Source: Escherichia coli
Lineage (GTDB): Bacteria; Pseudomonadota; Gammaproteobacteria; Enterobacterales; Enterobacteriaceae
Direction: 5' to 3' (one strand)
NCBI RefSeq assembly: GCF_003790525.1
Contig: NZ_CP033635.1
DNA: 64,000 nt
A model generated the notes under the pieces. It had not been told where the DNA came from, searched no databases, and saw only the letters and a list, made by a program, of their open reading frames with translations. Positions 7,445-23,761 of this stretch are shown here, in pieces. Numbering within the stretch: the stretch's first letter is position 1; every line of letters starts with the position of its first letter. The translations under genes were made by a program, and so were the position numbers.

Positions 7445-8068
7445 TCACGCCGGTTTCAGGTCCGGTTCAATCAGACTGTAGACCTGCTGGTTAAGTGCTG
7501 GCGCATTTGCCAGTTCATGGATATGTGCGGCGACATCGGCACGGTGAACAAAACCATGACACTCCTGATTTTGTATCCGTTGTGCTTTGCCCGTTGCCGC
7601 CCCATCAAGCAGACCGCCAGGGCGGAGAATGGCATAATCAAGCTGGCTGGTTTGCAACCAGCTTTCCGCCAGCGTTTTTTCCCGTACCGCCTGACCAAAC
7701 GCAGCCTTTGCCCGCTCTGATAAAAACGGCCAGCTATCGCCGCATCCCAAAGAGGTCACCAGAATCATGCGACTGATGCCAGCCTTCTCGGCCTCGTCAA
7801 TCACTGTTCTGTGCGCCAGATAATCCTGAGCTCCGCCCATTGTTGAGATGATAAGCGCATCCGGGCCAGCTGCGCGGCAAGCAGCCGCGACTACGCTGGC
7901 ATCACAGGCGTCGCCTGTAAAAACCTGTACGCCTTGTTGCGCCAGTTTCGTGGCGGCATCAGCATGACGAATGACAGCAACGACCGGACGTTGTTCCGCC
8001 AGCGCCAGTTCAAGCGTTCTGGCACCCACACCTTTTCCGCCTGCGCCAAAGAGTAGCCACGGCGTCAT
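7445..8068 (-). CDS. chuY: ChuY, NAD(P)-binding protein of the haem utilisation operon
   Basis: 207-aa ORF with N-terminal Rossmann-like glycine motif (FGAGGKGVGA); position between chuX and chuU. Confidence 0.8.
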   Translation of the reverse strand: MTPWLLFGAGGKGVGARTLELALAEQRPVVAVIRHADAATKLAQQGVQVFTGDACDASVVAAACRAAGPDALIISTMGGAQDYLAHRTVIDEAEKAGISRMILVTSLGCGDSWPFLSERAKAAFGQAVREKTLAESWLQTSQLDYAILRPGGLLDGAATGKAQRIQNQECHGFVHRADVAAHIHELANAPALNQQVYSLIEPDLKPA

Positions 8069-21177: not shown

Positions 21178-21531
21178 TTAACTACAAATATTCTTACTGT
21201 CTGCGGAACAATTTTGTCTGGCGAGGTTACGGACAATCACCTGAACCTTTTCCTGTTCGCATCGCCAGGCCTGCTCAATAATTTTCGCCGCCCATGCTGG
21301 AATATGCGGCGATAAACGGTAATGAACCCACTTTCCTTGCTTGCGGTCCAGCAATAGCCCACTTTCACGCAGTAATGCCAGATGGCGGGAGATCTTGGGC
21401 TGCGACTGATCGAGGGCAGTGCAGAGATCGCAGACGCATAACTCTCCCAGCTCGCTGAGCAGTAAAACGATGCCCAAACGGGTTTCATCGGCAAGAATTT
21501 TGAAGAGTTGGATGGGTAACAGAAATGACAT
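21178..21531 (-). CDS. arsR: arsenical resistance operon repressor ArsR
   Basis: 117-aa ORF with metal-binding ELCVCDLC motif and HTH; first gene of arsRBC. Confidence 0.95.
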   Translation of the reverse strand: MSFLLPIQLFKILADETRLGIVLLLSELGELCVCDLCTALDQSQPKISRHLALLRESGLLLDRKQGKWVHYRLSPHIPAWAAKIIEQAWRCEQEKVQVIVRNLARQNCSADSKNICS

Positions 21532-21600
21532 ATTGCGCTCCTGATTGTTGCACTTAGTGTCTCTCTTCGAAGCGGATAAGTCAAAAACATATATGGTTTA
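21532..21600 (-). promoter_or_regulatory. arsRBC promoter / ArsR operator region
   Basis: Minus-strand TTGACT (21579..21584 on plus) upstream of the arsR start; position-based, operator not delimited. Confidence 0.35.
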
Positions 21601-21683
21601 ACGAATTCGTATGTGCAGAGGAAGGTAATAGGTGTGAATTTTGAGTTGGGTATTCATTTGAAAGGAGGTCTGAATCAGGACAT

Positions 21684-21770
21684 AAAAAACCGACTTTGCG
21701 TCGGTTTTTTACTCTTCAGCCTGAGTTGGTGGCTCTGGCTGGAGTGAGAGAGCTCTTATCTAACGGTTCA
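21684..21770 (-). ncRNA. agrA: AgrA small RNA (antisense-type repeat of the dinQ locus)
   Basis: Repeat unit sharing tggctctggctggagtgaga...atctaacg with the dinQ 5' UTR, ending in an intrinsic terminator (ccgac-tttgc-gtcgg plus T-run on minus strand); ends approximate. Confidence 0.45.
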
Positions 21771-21915
21771 ATACTATTAGCCAGTGACTAACATTGCAAG
21801 AATTAGCGATTTCTTCAGCTGGCGGAGGGACAGTTTGCTATACATGGTGGTGAAAGAGGATTGATATACTTTCATCGGGTCGCTGCCGTACCAAGCCTTG
21901 TCCGAATCCGGATGT

Positions 21916-22002
21916 AAAAAAACCGACTTTGCGTCGGTTTTTTACTTTCCAGCCCTGAGTTGGTGGCTCTGGCTGGAGTGAGAATGCCATCATCTAACGC
22001 AT
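21916..22002 (-). ncRNA. agrB: AgrB small RNA (antisense regulator of dinQ)
   Basis: Second copy of the repeat, nearest dinQ and most complementary to its 5' UTR (ggagtgagaatgccatcatctaacg vs ggagtgagaatgccattatctaaca), with its own hairpin/T-run terminator; ends approximate. Confidence 0.45.
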
Positions 22003-22052
22003 CAATGCTAATACCATACTGAAACTATTGCAAGGACATGCTGGTTTTATAA

Positions 22053-22068
22053 CCTGAATATACTGTAT
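22053..22068. promoter_or_regulatory. LexA operator (SOS box) of dinQ
   Basis: CTGTATGATTATCCAG matches CTGT-N8-ACAG, about 200 nt upstream of the dinQ ORF. Confidence 0.7.
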
Positions 22069-22271
22069 GATTATCCAGTTAGCTCTGAGGCATTTTCACT
22101 CTGGCAATGCGCATAAACGCTTTCAAAGTCCTGATCAGTGGTACGGGTGGTGCCGTTAACTGATGCTCTGGCCGGAGTGAGAATGCCATTATCTAACAAT
22201 AGGGCATGCGCCGTGACAGGCAATGGATGAGTAAGCGGATGCATTCTCACTCCATCGTATGGAGAACACGG

Positions 22272-22358
22272 GTGATTGATAAAGCAATCATCGTTCTTGG
22301 GGCGTTAATTGCGCTGCTGGAACTGATCCGCTTTCTGCTTCAGCTTCTGAACTGGTAG
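22272..22358 (+). CDS. dinQ: DinQ, SOS-induced type I toxin (small inner membrane peptide)
   Basis: GTG-initiated 28-codon ORF (M)IDKAIIVLGALIALLELIRFLLQLLNW preceded by GGAG; matches the DinQ peptide as I recall it; located between arsR and gor. Confidence 0.7.
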   Translation: MIDKAIIVLGALIALLELIRFLLQLLNW

Positions 22359-22371
22359 CGGAAACGTAGCT

Positions 22372-22402
22372 AAGGGCTAAGAGCACACTACTCTTAGCCC
22401 TT
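22372..22402. terminator. bidirectional intrinsic terminator shared by dinQ and gor
   Basis: 12-bp stem aagggctaagag / ctcttagccctt with 7-nt loop, 14 nt after the dinQ stop and 7 nt after the gor stop. Confidence 0.55.
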
Positions 22403-22408
22403 TAACAT

Positions 22409-23761
22409 TTAACGCATGGTCACGAACTCTTCTGCCGCCGTCGGGTGAATGGCGACGGTATTATCGAAGTCTTTTTTGGTTGCGCCCATCTTCAGTGCCA
22501 CCGCGAAGCCCTGCAACATTTCGTCCATACCAAAACCAATGCCGTGAATTCCGACAATCTTCTCTTCCGGTCCAACGCATACCAGTTTCATGCGGCACGG
22601 CTGGCGGTGAGTGGTGACGGCGGTATACATCGCGGTGAAAGAGGATTTATACACTTTCACCTGATCGTCGCCGTACTGCTCGCGTGCCTGCGGTTCCGTT
22701 AAACCAACAGTCCCAATCGGCGGATGGCTGAAGACCACGGTCGGAATGTTGCTGTAATCCAGATGCTCATCCGGCTTGTTATTAAACAGGCGTTCAGAGA
22801 GACGGCGACCCGCAGCAACTGCCACCGGTGTCAGTTCCACTGCACCCGTGTTATCGCCCACCGCGTAAATACCTTCAACGTTGGTATTTTGATATTTATC
22901 GACGACGATATAGCCTTTTTCGTTGGTTTTTACACCAGCGGCTTCCAGGTTGATGTTGTCATTGGCAGGCTCGCGACCAATCGCCCAAATCAGGCAATCC
23001 ACCGTTTCACTGCGCCCATCTTCCAGCTCCAGCGTCAGGCTACCATCAGCATTTTTCACTACTGCTTTCGGGATGGCGTTGGTGTGCAACTGCGGGCCTT
23101 CGGCGTTCATCACTTCGACCAGCGTTTCAGAGATCATCGGGTCGAAGCTGCGCAGCGGCGCATGTTTACGCACAAACAGATGCGTTTTCGCGCCGAGGCC
23201 GTTAATCACGCCCGCCAGTTCCACGGCGATGTAACCTGCGCCAACAACCGCCACGCGCTCTGGCAAAGCAGGAAGGGCGAAGAAACCATCGGAATCAATA
23301 CCGTATTCCACGCCTGGAATATCCGGGTGGCTCGGACGACCACCGGTGGCGATCAGAATATGATCGGCCGTGATGGTTTCGCCGTTGACTTCAATGGTTT
23401 TGGCATCAACGAAGCGGGCAAAGCCTTTGATTACATCAACGTTATTTTTACCGAGCACGTTCTCATAGGAAGTATGAATACGGTCGATATAGGCGGTACG
23501 GCTGGCGATCAACGTTTCCCAGTTGAACTTATTGATGGTGGTATCGAAACCATAATCCGGGCCGTACATGTGGATCGCTTCACGGATTTGCGCCGCGTGC
23601 CACATCACTTTTTTCGGCACACAGCCAACATTTACGCAGGTGCCGCCCAGCTCTTTGGCTTCAATCAGTGCGCATTTCTGGCCGTACATAGCCGCGCGGT
23701 TGATGGAGGCGATACCGCCGCTGCCGCCGCCGATGGCGATGTAATCATAGTGTTTAGTCAT
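22409..23761 (-). CDS. gor: glutathione reductase
   Basis: 450-aa ORF, FAD motif GGGSGG, redox-active [10 protein letters not shown], sequence recognised as Gor. Confidence 0.96.

What the first reader, a model, noticed from the sequence alone, without database searches (positions are those of the whole stretch)
21684..22404. dinQ-agrAB type I toxin locus with three copies of an 'antisense' repeat
The arsR-gor intergenic region holds a 28-codon GTG-initiated hydrophobic ORF (DinQ), a LexA box and three copies of a ~30-nt core (ggctctggctggagtgaga...atctaacg). Two copies sit on units ending in intrinsic terminators (AgrA, AgrB) and one lies in the dinQ 5' UTR. The AgrB copy is the closer match to the dinQ copy, consistent with AgrB being the principal antisense repressor. 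This is not novel but is easily missed by ORF-based annotation.
Basis: partly seen in the sequence, partly recalled or inferred. Interest (0 to 1): 0.45.

Follow-up and report, generated by a model that had tools for sequence, protein, structure and literature searches.

The report
dinQ toxin locus, swapped antisense partner
This is the already described DNA-damage-inducible DinQ membrane-toxin gene of E. coli with its two small antisense RNA genes, but in this strain the antisense copy that matches the toxin message is the one treated as an inactive spare (AgrA) in the laboratory strain K-12.

Summary
The window is E. coli SMS-3-5. The arsR-gor spacer holds a 28-codon GTG-initiated ORF that matches NCBIfam toxin_DinQ, a LexA box identical to the K-12 one, and three copies of a 33-nt core (0.02 expected by chance). 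Two minus-strand units pass the Rfam AgrB (RF02891) threshold. So the locus is the published dinQ/agrAB type I toxin-antitoxin system and is not new.

By position, flanks and sequence, the copy that best matches the dinQ 5' UTR (21914-21998, minus strand) is the orthologue of K-12 agrA. It has 2 mismatches in 33 and a predicted duplex of -62 kcal/mol. The agrB orthologue (21681-21764) has 5 mismatches and -49.6 kcal/mol. This mirrors K-12.

The pattern holds across 5,426 complete E. coli genomes:
- 2,231 carry this target allele, and 2,221 of them have a matching proximal copy.
- 1,682 carry the K-12 allele, and 1,672 of them have a matching distal copy.
- 418 carry a third allele, and 416 of them match the proximal copy.
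- 819 have a repeat-to-repeat deletion that removes all promoters.

Sampled related species that have only one agr carry the proximal one. I found no paper describing this partner switch. Function in this strain is inferred, not tested.

The parts
21681..21764 (-). Distal (arsR-proximal) agr gene, orthologue of K-12 agrB. In this strain it is the poorer match to dinQ.
   Evidence: Rfam RF02891 85.4 bits. Collinear with K-12 agrB. Five mismatches in 33 to the dinQ target; duplex -49.6 kcal/mol. Still predicted to fold as two hairpins.
21683..21711 (-). Terminator hairpin plus U-run of the distal agr
   Evidence: 12-nt perfect inverted repeat I6. Falls in the terminator helix of the Rfam alignment.
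21732..21764 (.). Core repeat copy 1, the 5' antisense segment of the distal agr (8-nt patch GAGCTCTT)
   Evidence: D1
21771..21799 (-). Inferred distal agr promoter on the minus strand: -35 TTGCAA (21794-21799), 17-nt spacer, -10 TAGTAT (21771-21776), 6 nt before the start at 21764
   Evidence: Read from the sequence. Both hexamers are identical to K-12 and the spacer differs at one base. Scores 8 of 12 to consensus, just under the scan threshold. Inferred, not mapped.
21839..21891 (-). Relic of a gor fragment between the two agr units. At the peptide level the similarity runs from about 21777 to 21905.
   Evidence: 83% identity over 53 nt to gor 22624-22676, E=2e-11, same orientation. Reads AWYGSDPMKVYQSSFTTMY... 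against Gor [21 protein letters not shown]... (D3, 50).
21914..21998 (-). Proximal (dinQ-proximal) agr gene, orthologue of K-12 agrA. Predicted to be the cognate antisense RNA of dinQ in this strain.
   Evidence: Rfam RF02891 108.1 bits. Collinear with K-12 agrA. Two mismatches in 33, one of which gives a G-U pair; duplex -62.0 kcal/mol.
21917..21944 (-). Terminator hairpin plus U-run of the proximal agr
   Evidence: D4, I1; Rfam alignment
21966..21998 (.). Core repeat copy 2, the 5' antisense segment of the proximal agr (patch ATGCCATC)
   Evidence: D1
22005..22033 (-). Inferred proximal agr promoter: -35 TTGCAA (22028-22033), 17-nt spacer, -10 TAGCAT (22005-22010)
   Evidence: Read from the sequence. 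Identical to K-12 over this stretch, where agrA is transcribed (PMC3567139). Inferred for this strain.
22061..22080 (+). LexA operator overlapping the dinQ promoter and transcription start
   Evidence: TACTGTATGATTATCCAGTT, identical to K-12. Described as a LexA operator with heterology index 4.83 in PMC3567139.
22078..22405 (+). dinQ primary transcript (+1 at 22078 by homology with the K-12 map), with the processing site U44 at 22121
   Evidence: There are no indels between +1 and the GUG relative to K-12. Element numbering from PMC5066626. Start and processing site are transferred from K-12, not mapped here.
22093..22105 (+). Sequence element 1 (U16-C28), which pairs with element 2 in the inert +1 mRNA
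   Evidence: Predicted 1:2 pairing is reproduced in the fold of the +1 RNA. Duplex -29.6 kcal/mol.
22165..22197 (+). Core repeat copy 3, the Agr target site in the dinQ 5' UTR (patch ATGCCATT). Contains element 2 (22171-22183).
   Evidence: D1
22241..22264 (+). Element 3 (22244-22255) and element 4 with the Shine-Dalgarno sequence (22259-22264). Bases 22241-22253 are a perfect 13-nt complement of 22174-22186.
   Evidence: I4; 2:3 pairing in the +44 fold; -25.6 kcal/mol against -20.1 for the K-12 allele
22272..22358 (+). dinQ coding sequence: GTG start, 28 codons plus TAG stop
   Evidence: RefSeq annotation; NF041472 at 53.9 bits
22372..22402 (.). Hairpin between dinQ and gor, the likely shared or bidirectional terminator
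   Evidence: 12-nt perfect inverted repeat I7. PMC3567139 places the dinQ terminator here.

Best explanation
The region is the SOS-regulated dinQ/agrAB type I toxin-antitoxin locus of E. coli.

Mechanism, transferred from the K-12 experiments:
1. LexA represses dinQ at the box at 22061-22080.
2. After DNA damage a ~330-nt mRNA is made from about 22078. It cannot be translated, because element 1 pairs with element 2, which leaves element 3 free to close the Shine-Dalgarno hairpin.
3. Removal of the first 44 nt frees element 2 to pair with element 3. This opens the ribosome-binding site, and the 28-aa membrane peptide is translated from the GUG at 22272.
4. A constitutive ~84-nt antisense RNA pairs through its 5' ~33 nt with 22165-22197, which includes element 2. 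The Shine-Dalgarno hairpin re-closes and the duplex becomes an RNase III substrate.

Inference specific to this strain: the antisense RNA that does this job is the product of the dinQ-proximal gene (21998 to 21914, the orthologue of K-12 agrA). The distal agrB orthologue is the mismatched paralogue.

Wider inference: the three repeats exchange an 8-nt specificity patch, probably by short-tract gene conversion. The toxin target therefore always keeps one matching antisense gene, but which paralogue matches differs between lineages. K-12 represents the minority, probably derived, state.
For: Shown here:
- Identity of the locus: 100% match to E. coli SMS-3-5 with dinQ annotated; NCBIfam toxin_DinQ; two Rfam AgrB hits; LexA box and elements 1-4 conserved and collinear with K-12.
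- Orthology of the copies: K-12 annotation plus the alignment.
- Complementarity in this strain: proximal copy 32/36 Watson-Crick positions and -62.0 kcal/mol; distal copy 29/36 and -49.6 kcal/mol. In K-12, where function was measured, AgrB gives -58.2 and the inactive AgrA gives -42.7.
- Association across 5,426 complete genomes. The window-type target is found in 2,231 genomes, and 2,221 of them also carry a matching proximal patch. The K-12-type target is found in 1,682, and 1,672 also carry a matching distal patch. The third target type is found in 418, and 416 also carry a matching proximal patch.
- Sampled loci: the same rule holds in 22 of the 23 loci that carry a dinQ target; E. whittamii is an energetic tie.
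- Related species: E. albertii, Escherichia sp. E1V33, a Serratia, a Pantoea and an unnamed enterobacterium have a single agr in the proximal geometry, with a patch that co-varies with their own target.
- Covariation: cognate pairs are 99.5% paired, 7 of 20 pairs show changes on both sides, and 0 of 500 shuffles reach this. The non-cognate paralogues are 85% paired, below the shuffle mean.

From the literature:
- The regulatory mechanism and the inactivity of the mismatched AgrA in K-12 (PMC3567139, PMC5066626).
- In the related plasmid system dqlB/agrB, a 4-nt mismatch abolishes antitoxin function and a compensatory change restores it (PMC12365149).
Against: - No transcript, processing or toxicity data exist for this strain. 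Both agr promoters are inferred only from sequence identity with K-12.
- The distal copy still has 29/36 complementarity and a predicted -49.6 kcal/mol, which is less degraded than K-12 AgrA. It could contribute. In K-12 even AgrA lowered the level of the inert primary transcript.
- Duplex energies do not capture binding kinetics or seed accessibility.
- Single-sequence folding did not reproduce the published Shine-Dalgarno opening and closing cleanly.
- Choosing the better-matching copy as 'cognate' inflates the paired percentage. Five of its ten rows, however, come from loci with only one agr.
- The direction of evolution rests on a handful of outgroup genomes, without a tree.
Confidence: 0.8

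Rival explanations
1. The K-12 wiring holds here too. The distal agrB orthologue is the principal repressor of dinQ, and the proximal copy is a non-functional duplicate, as the first reader implied by transferring the K-12 names.
For: AgrB is the only effective antitoxin in K-12. The distal gene is intact here, passes the Rfam threshold, keeps a K-12-like promoter and folds into two hairpins.
Against: It has 5 mismatches in 33, four of them unpairable within the first 20 nt, and a duplex 12.4 kcal/mol weaker than the proximal copy. In 2,221 of 2,231 genomes with this target allele it is the proximal copy that carries the matching patch. A 4-nt mismatch abolishes function in the homologous plasmid system.
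Confidence: 0.07
2. Both antisense RNAs act on dinQ in this strain. The proximal one blocks the processed, translatable mRNA, and the distal one contributes partial or conditional repression, for example by lowering the level of the primary transcript.
For: The distal duplex is still predicted at -49.6 kcal/mol, with continuous helices of 9 and 8 bp. In K-12 both sRNAs reduced the primary transcript.
Against: K-12 AgrA, with a comparable deficit (15.5 kcal/mol against 12.4 here), failed to close the Shine-Dalgarno hairpin or to inhibit translation in vitro. Many genomes with this target allele have lost the distal copy altogether (strains 3985, KFu021 and L16-131).
Confidence: 0.13

Closest known systems
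dinQ/agrAB of E. coli K-12 (Weel-Sneve et al. 2013, PMC3567139; Kristiansen et al. 2016, PMC5066626)
   Same: Same locus and the same gene order between arsR and gor. Same LexA box, the same four mRNA elements, the same GTG start, and two divergent ~84-nt antisense genes. This is an orthologue, not merely a relative.
   Different: The 8-nt specificity patch of the dinQ target is ATGCCATT here and GAGTTCTT in K-12. The near-perfect partner is therefore the agrA orthologue rather than agrB. The patch also lengthens the intramolecular 1:2 and 2:3 duplexes. DinQ carries an extra C-terminal Trp.
Plasmid dqlB/agrB addiction module, e.g. pOXA-48 (PMC12365149)
   Same: Homologous toxin and 5' UTR, and a trans antisense RNA with ~35 nt of complementarity. 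Function depends on exact pairing, shown there by mismatch and compensatory mutants.
   Different: It has a single antisense gene, is carried on plasmids, and acts in post-segregational killing. No LexA control is described in the passages I read.
tisB/istR-1 of E. coli
   Same: An SOS-induced type I toxin with a divergent, non-overlapping antisense RNA. The primary mRNA is inert and is activated by 5' processing, and the duplex is cleaved by RNase III, as summarised in PMC3567139.
   Different: The toxin and RNAs are unrelated in sequence. To my knowledge there is no duplicated antisense gene with exchangeable specificity.
zorO-orzO / zorP-orzP of E. coli O157:H7 (from my own knowledge of Wen, Won and Fozo 2014; not checked here)
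   Same: A duplicated type I toxin-antitoxin system in which a few nucleotide differences in the pairing region make each antisense RNA specific for its own toxin mRNA.
   Different: There both toxins are kept, so each antisense RNA has a target. Here only one toxin gene remains, with two antisense genes, and the target allele decides which one is used.

Membership tests
dinQ/agrAB type I toxin-antitoxin locus | Small hydrophobic single-helix peptide homologous to DinQ, translated from a GTG | tested here: met
   28-aa ORF at 22272-22358. NCBIfam NF041472 (equivalog) at 53.9 bits against a cut-off of 30. RefSeq names it dinQ.
dinQ/agrAB type I toxin-antitoxin locus | [quoted passage not shown] | tested here: met
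   arsR at 21178-21531 and gor at 22409-23761 flank it. Collinear with K-12.
dinQ/agrAB type I toxin-antitoxin locus | LexA operator at the toxin promoter (SOS control) | tested here: met
   The 20-nt box at 22061-22080 is identical to the K-12 operator (PMC3567139). LexA binding itself was not tested.
dinQ/agrAB type I toxin-antitoxin locus | Divergent, non-overlapping small RNA gene(s) whose 5' ~31-34 nt are complementary to the toxin 5' UTR and which end in an intrinsic terminator | tested here: met
   Two Rfam RF02891 hits at 108.1 and 85.4 bits against a gathering score of 40. Complementarity 32/36 and 29/36.
dinQ/agrAB type I toxin-antitoxin locus | Four mRNA elements that allow mutually exclusive 1:2, 2:3 and 3:4 pairings | tested here: met
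   All four elements are present at the K-12 positions. The 1:2 pairing is predicted in the +1 RNA and the 2:3 pairing in the +44 RNA, with duplex energies. The predicted Shine-Dalgarno accessibility itself was inconclusive.
dinQ/agrAB type I toxin-antitoxin locus | Processing at +44, RNase III cleavage of the duplex, peptide toxicity and rescue by the antisense RNA | not testable with these tools
   Known only from K-12 experiments (PMC3567139, PMC5066626).
K-12 wiring of the locus (AgrB cognate, AgrA degenerate) | The arsR-proximal copy (agrB) is the near-perfect complement of the dinQ target, and the dinQ-proximal copy (agrA) carries the mismatches | tested here: not met
   Reversed in the window: proximal copy 2 mismatches in 33 and -62.0 kcal/mol, distal copy 5 in 33 and -49.6 kcal/mol.
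Rfam RF02891 (AgrB) | Covariance-model score at or above the gathering threshold of 40 bits over the full model | tested here: met
   Both units match model positions 1-84. The family does not separate AgrA from AgrB, so a hit does not say which paralogue it is.

The most novel reading that the evidence does not exclude
The dinQ locus switches its cognate antitoxin. An 8-nt patch moves among the three repeats, so the toxin target is always matched by exactly one of two paralogous antisense genes. In about half of E. coli genomes, and in the related species sampled, that gene is 'AgrA'. The textbook K-12 arrangement (AgrB active, AgrA 'degenerate') is then a derived minority haplotype. K-12 AgrA would not be a decayed gene but an intact antitoxin allele for a dinQ target type that K-12 no longer carries. 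The same repeats also mediate recurrent deletions that remove the toxin and antitoxin promoters together (819 genomes, including ST131 and Nissle 1917). I found no description of this in the papers I could search.
Probability: 0.6. Interest if true: 0.5.

Novelty: already known. Interest (0 to 1): 0.35.

Why it matters
The locus itself is textbook, so the finding as written adds nothing new. It does show that ORF-based annotation leaves the two small RNA genes unlabelled: RefSeq annotates only dinQ in this strain.

What could matter is the correction.
- Names and functional roles copied from K-12 would label the wrong RNA as the antitoxin in roughly half of E. coli genomes. The Rfam family cannot tell the two paralogues apart.
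- The natural alleles amount to a ready-made set of compensatory mutants for studying antisense specificity.
- They give an example of how a type I toxin-antitoxin pair can re-wire by exchange between repeats.
- They also suggest that a large group of genomes, including the ST131 and Nissle 1917 examples seen here, has silenced the system by a clean repeat-mediated deletion.

Tried and rejected
- The consensus promoter/terminator scan found none of the relevant signals. The agr promoters score 8 of 12, and the terminator T-runs are absorbed into the stems. I relied instead on Rfam, the inverted repeats and identity with K-12.
- Single-sequence folding of the +1 and +44 RNAs reproduced the 1:2 pairing, and the 2:3 pairing for this allele. 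The predicted Shine-Dalgarno accessibility was inconsistent between strains, including K-12, so I do not use it.
- One search reported two 'places' per genome, which I first took for a second locus. It is more simply explained by the internal repeat aligning off-diagonal, because genomes with one agr show one place. The 64-kb window holds no further copy.
- I considered that the ST131-type arrangement (terminator, core, then dinQ) might be an ancestral cis-antisense layout, like the plasmid dql in L025. I rejected this because it equals a 199-nt deletion between the two cores of a B2-type locus and keeps neither promoter.
- I considered that the distal copy here is structurally damaged, given its 1-nt deletion, two substitutions and lower Rfam score. 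It is still predicted to fold into two hairpins at -28.8 kcal/mol, against -30.4 for the proximal copy, so I make no such claim.
- Literature searches for a described AgrA/AgrB partner swap found nothing. T1TAdb simply picks the more stable antisense RNA when two are present.

Full report
**Source and layout.** The stretch 21532-22408 is 100% identical to the E. coli SMS-3-5 chromosome, and 5,422 of 5,426 complete E. coli genomes hold a related sequence. The window is in the opposite orientation to the K-12 reference. arsR (21178-21531) and gor (22409-23761) are both on the minus strand, and RefSeq annotates only dinQ between them.

**Checking the observation.**
- Repeat analysis finds three copies of a 33-nt core at 21732-21764, 21966-21998 and 22165-22197. 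It also finds a longer ~100-nt duplication with a period of about 234 nt that includes a hairpin with 12-nt perfect arms followed by a T-run.
- The motif GGAGTGAGA-N8-ATCTAAC occurs three times in the 64-kb window, against 0.02 expected.
- Rfam's AgrB model (RF02891) matches two minus-strand units over its full length, at 21914-21997 (108.1 bits) and 21681-21763 (85.4 bits), with a gathering score of 40.
- The ORF at 22272-22358 starts with GTG and encodes 28 residues. It matches the NCBIfam equivalog toxin_DinQ at 53.9 bits against a cut-off of 30.
- The 20-nt LexA box at 22061-22080 is identical to the K-12 box, which Weel-Sneve et al. describe as a LexA operator (PMC3567139).

**Mapping the published mechanism onto the window.** Kristiansen et al. 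(PMC5066626) define these elements on the K-12 mRNA: element 1 (U16-C28), element 2 (G94-G106), element 3 (U167-U178), element 4 with the Shine-Dalgarno sequence (A182-G187), the AgrB site (G88-A119), the GUG start (G195) and the +44 processing site. There are no indels between +1 and the GUG relative to K-12. The elements therefore map as follows:

| Element | Window coordinates |
|---|---|
| +1 | 22078 |
| U44 | 22121 |
| Element 1 | 22093-22105 |
| Element 2 | 22171-22183 |
| Agr site | 22165-22196 |
| Element 3 | 22244-22255 |
| Element 4 / Shine-Dalgarno | 22259-22264 |
| GUG | 22272 |

Folding reproduces the 1:2 pairing in the full-length RNA and the 2:3 pairing in the RNA that lacks the first 44 nt. 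The predicted Shine-Dalgarno accessibility was not reliable, even for K-12, so that step rests on the published probing data.

**Which copy is which.** The K-12 annotation places agrA next to dinQ and agrB next to arsR. In K-12 the dinQ target (8-nt patch GAGTTCTT) is identical in the patch to the arsR-proximal copy, and it differs from the dinQ-proximal copy (TAGCCATC) at many positions. That agrees with the published figures of 30/31 against 25/31.

The window aligns collinearly with K-12. Its dinQ-proximal copy has the agrA-type right flank and patch (ATCTAAC-GCATCAATGCTA; ATCTAAC is the constant end of the core). Its arsR-proximal copy has the agrB-type flank and patch (ATCTAAC-GGTTCAATACTA, GAGCTCTT). 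The dinQ target here reads ATGCCATT. It differs from the proximal copy (ATGCCATC) at 2 of 33 positions, one of which gives a G-U pair. It differs from the distal copy at 5 of 33.

| Strain | Proximal copy (agrA position) | Distal copy (agrB position) |
|---|---|---|
| Window (SMS-3-5) | -62.0 kcal/mol | -49.6 kcal/mol |
| K-12 | -42.7 kcal/mol (AgrA, inactive) | -58.2 kcal/mol (AgrB, functional) |

These are the predicted duplex energies. The window is the mirror image of K-12.

**Is this a quirk of one strain?** It is not. I sampled 27 loci from E. coli and other Escherichia species. Every ATGCCATT or ATACCATT target pairs best with the proximal copy. Every GAGTTCTT target pairs best with the distal copy. 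Every TAGTCGTC target pairs best with the proximal copy, partly through G-U pairs, with E. whittamii an energetic tie.

To count at scale I used allele-specific 54-nt queries, in which neither flank is long enough to seed a match without the patch. I then joined an agr-allele segment to a dinQ-allele segment, so that at least 80% coverage requires both alleles in one genome.

| dinQ target allele | Genomes | Matching agr copy in the same genome |
|---|---|---|
| ATGCCATT (window type) | 2,231 | Proximal ATGCCATC 559 + ATGCCATT 1,662 = 2,221 |
| GAGTTCTT (K-12 type) | 1,682 | Distal GAGTTCTT 1,491 + GAGCTCTT 181 = 1,672 |
| TAGTCGTC (third type) | 418 | Proximal TAGCCATC 268 + TAGTCATC 148 = 416 |

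By the arithmetic, about 1,200 genomes carry a distal copy with the K-12 AgrB patch but a dinQ target that does not match it.

**Outgroups and covariation.**
- E. albertii and Escherichia sp. E1V33 have only the proximal copy, and it matches their target.
- E. whittamii and strain E69 have both copies, with targets of the third type.
- A Serratia, a Pantoea and an unnamed enterobacterium each have a single agr-like unit in the proximal geometry. Its patch (CAGCCCTC, ACATCATC) tracks the patch of their own toxin UTR.
- On chimeric alignments of the antisense 5' 20 nt with its target, cognate pairs are 99.5% paired. Seven of 20 pairs change on both sides, and no shuffle out of 500 reaches this value.
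- The non-cognate paralogues are 85% paired, below the shuffle mean.
- Picking the better copy biases the first figure, but half of its rows come from loci with only one agr.
- None of the five Escherichia loci that are not ordinary E. coli shows the K-12 target type. I therefore infer that the proximal gene is the ancestral antitoxin and that the K-12 target arose by copying the distal patch into the dinQ UTR. The K-12 and third-type targets differ only inside the 8-nt patch. This direction is an inference and needs a tree.

**Consequences for function (inferred).**
- K-12 AgrA differs by one base in the 33-nt core from the only agr gene of B2 strains such as ATCC 11775, where it matches the target. 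It therefore looks like an intact antitoxin allele without its target, not a decayed gene.
- In the related plasmid system dqlB/agrB, a 4-nt mismatch abolishes protection and a compensatory change restores it (PMC12365149). This makes it plausible that the four unpairable positions of the distal copy here disable it.
- The window-type patch also lengthens both intramolecular duplexes, 1:2 to -29.6 from -23.4 kcal/mol and 2:3 to -25.6 from -20.1 (the 13-nt perfect complement is I4). The patch is therefore constrained by three partners.

**Other structural variation.**
- A 53-nt stretch between the two agr units is 83% identical to an internal part of gor, in the same orientation (E=2e-11), and it still reads as Gor-like peptide. 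This suggests that the distal agr came from a tandem duplication of agr-dinQ-gor', followed by loss of the duplicate toxin.
- In 819 genomes the agr core is fused to the dinQ core, which removes the LexA box and both promoters. Examples are ST131 and Nissle 1917.
- Two further fusions with different patches show that this deletion recurs.

**Comparison with the literature.** The locus, its RNAs and its mechanism are published (PMC3567139, PMC5066626). T1TAdb notes that two paralogues may be present and picks the more stable pairing (PMC8594479). None of the papers I could search describes a change of cognate partner between strains.

**Verdict.** The assignment of AgrB as the matching copy is wrong for this strain. 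The partner switch is a modest finding that appears to be undescribed. It is firmly supported at the sequence level and untested at the functional level.

Noticed in passing
window 21839-21891 (peptide-level similarity about 21777-21905), minus strand: A relic of an internal gor fragment lies between the two agr units. It is 83% identical over 53 nt to gor 22624-22676 and still reads as Gor-like peptide. This points to an old tandem duplication of agr-dinQ-gor' followed by loss of the second toxin. The relic is more decayed in K-12 and 55989, where it has a 4-nt deletion.
   Followed up: partly
window 22353-22358: DinQ in this strain ends ...LLNW instead of ...LLN, because the K-12 stop TGA reads TGG and the next codon TAG stops translation. 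In every other locus where the DinQ ORF was read, the 27-aa form was present.
   Followed up: partly
L008 and L009 (about 416-560); also L030 and L034: In ST131, Nissle 1917 and others (819 of 5,426 genomes) an agr core is fused directly to the dinQ core. This is a 199-nt deletion that removes the LexA box, the dinQ promoter and the agr promoter but leaves the ORF intact. Fusions with other patches (ATGCCATT in CFIAFB20190157, GAGTTCTT in PEC389) show that it happened more than once.
   Followed up: partly
L025 2470-2712 (plasmid pS34_2): A plasmid-borne dinQ-like gene (MIDKAIIVLGALISLLELIRYLLQLMG). Just upstream is a terminator, and next to it a 37-nt stretch nearly identical to the chromosomal agr stem-loop region (TTCCAGCCCTGAGTTGGTGGCTCTGGCTGGAGTG). 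The rest of the UTR is much more diverged.
   Followed up: no
L024 about 7850-8060 (reverse complement), Citrobacter amalonaticus: An agr-like unit with a terminator, then a LexA-like box and the first ~60 nt of a dinQ-like leader. No target core or dinQ ORF follows. It looks like an orphan antisense gene beside a truncated toxin gene.
   Followed up: no
window 22071-22250, minus strand: A 59-codon ORF lies antisense to the dinQ leader. Its equivalent is annotated as 'hypothetical protein' in several RefSeq genomes (for example). It is probably a spurious gene call over the RNA regulatory region.
   Followed up: no
L007-L009, L035, L036 (left flank): In the B2-type genomes sampled, the gene next to the locus is arsC rather than arsR, so the ars operon is arranged differently or is partly missing. 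These loci have one agr or none.
   Followed up: no
window 22174-22186 with 22241-22253: The window-type patch creates a perfect 13-bp duplex between element 2 and the region of element 3, against about 10 bp in K-12. It also lengthens the 1:2 duplex. The three target alleles may therefore differ in how readily the processed mRNA is translated.
   Followed up: partly
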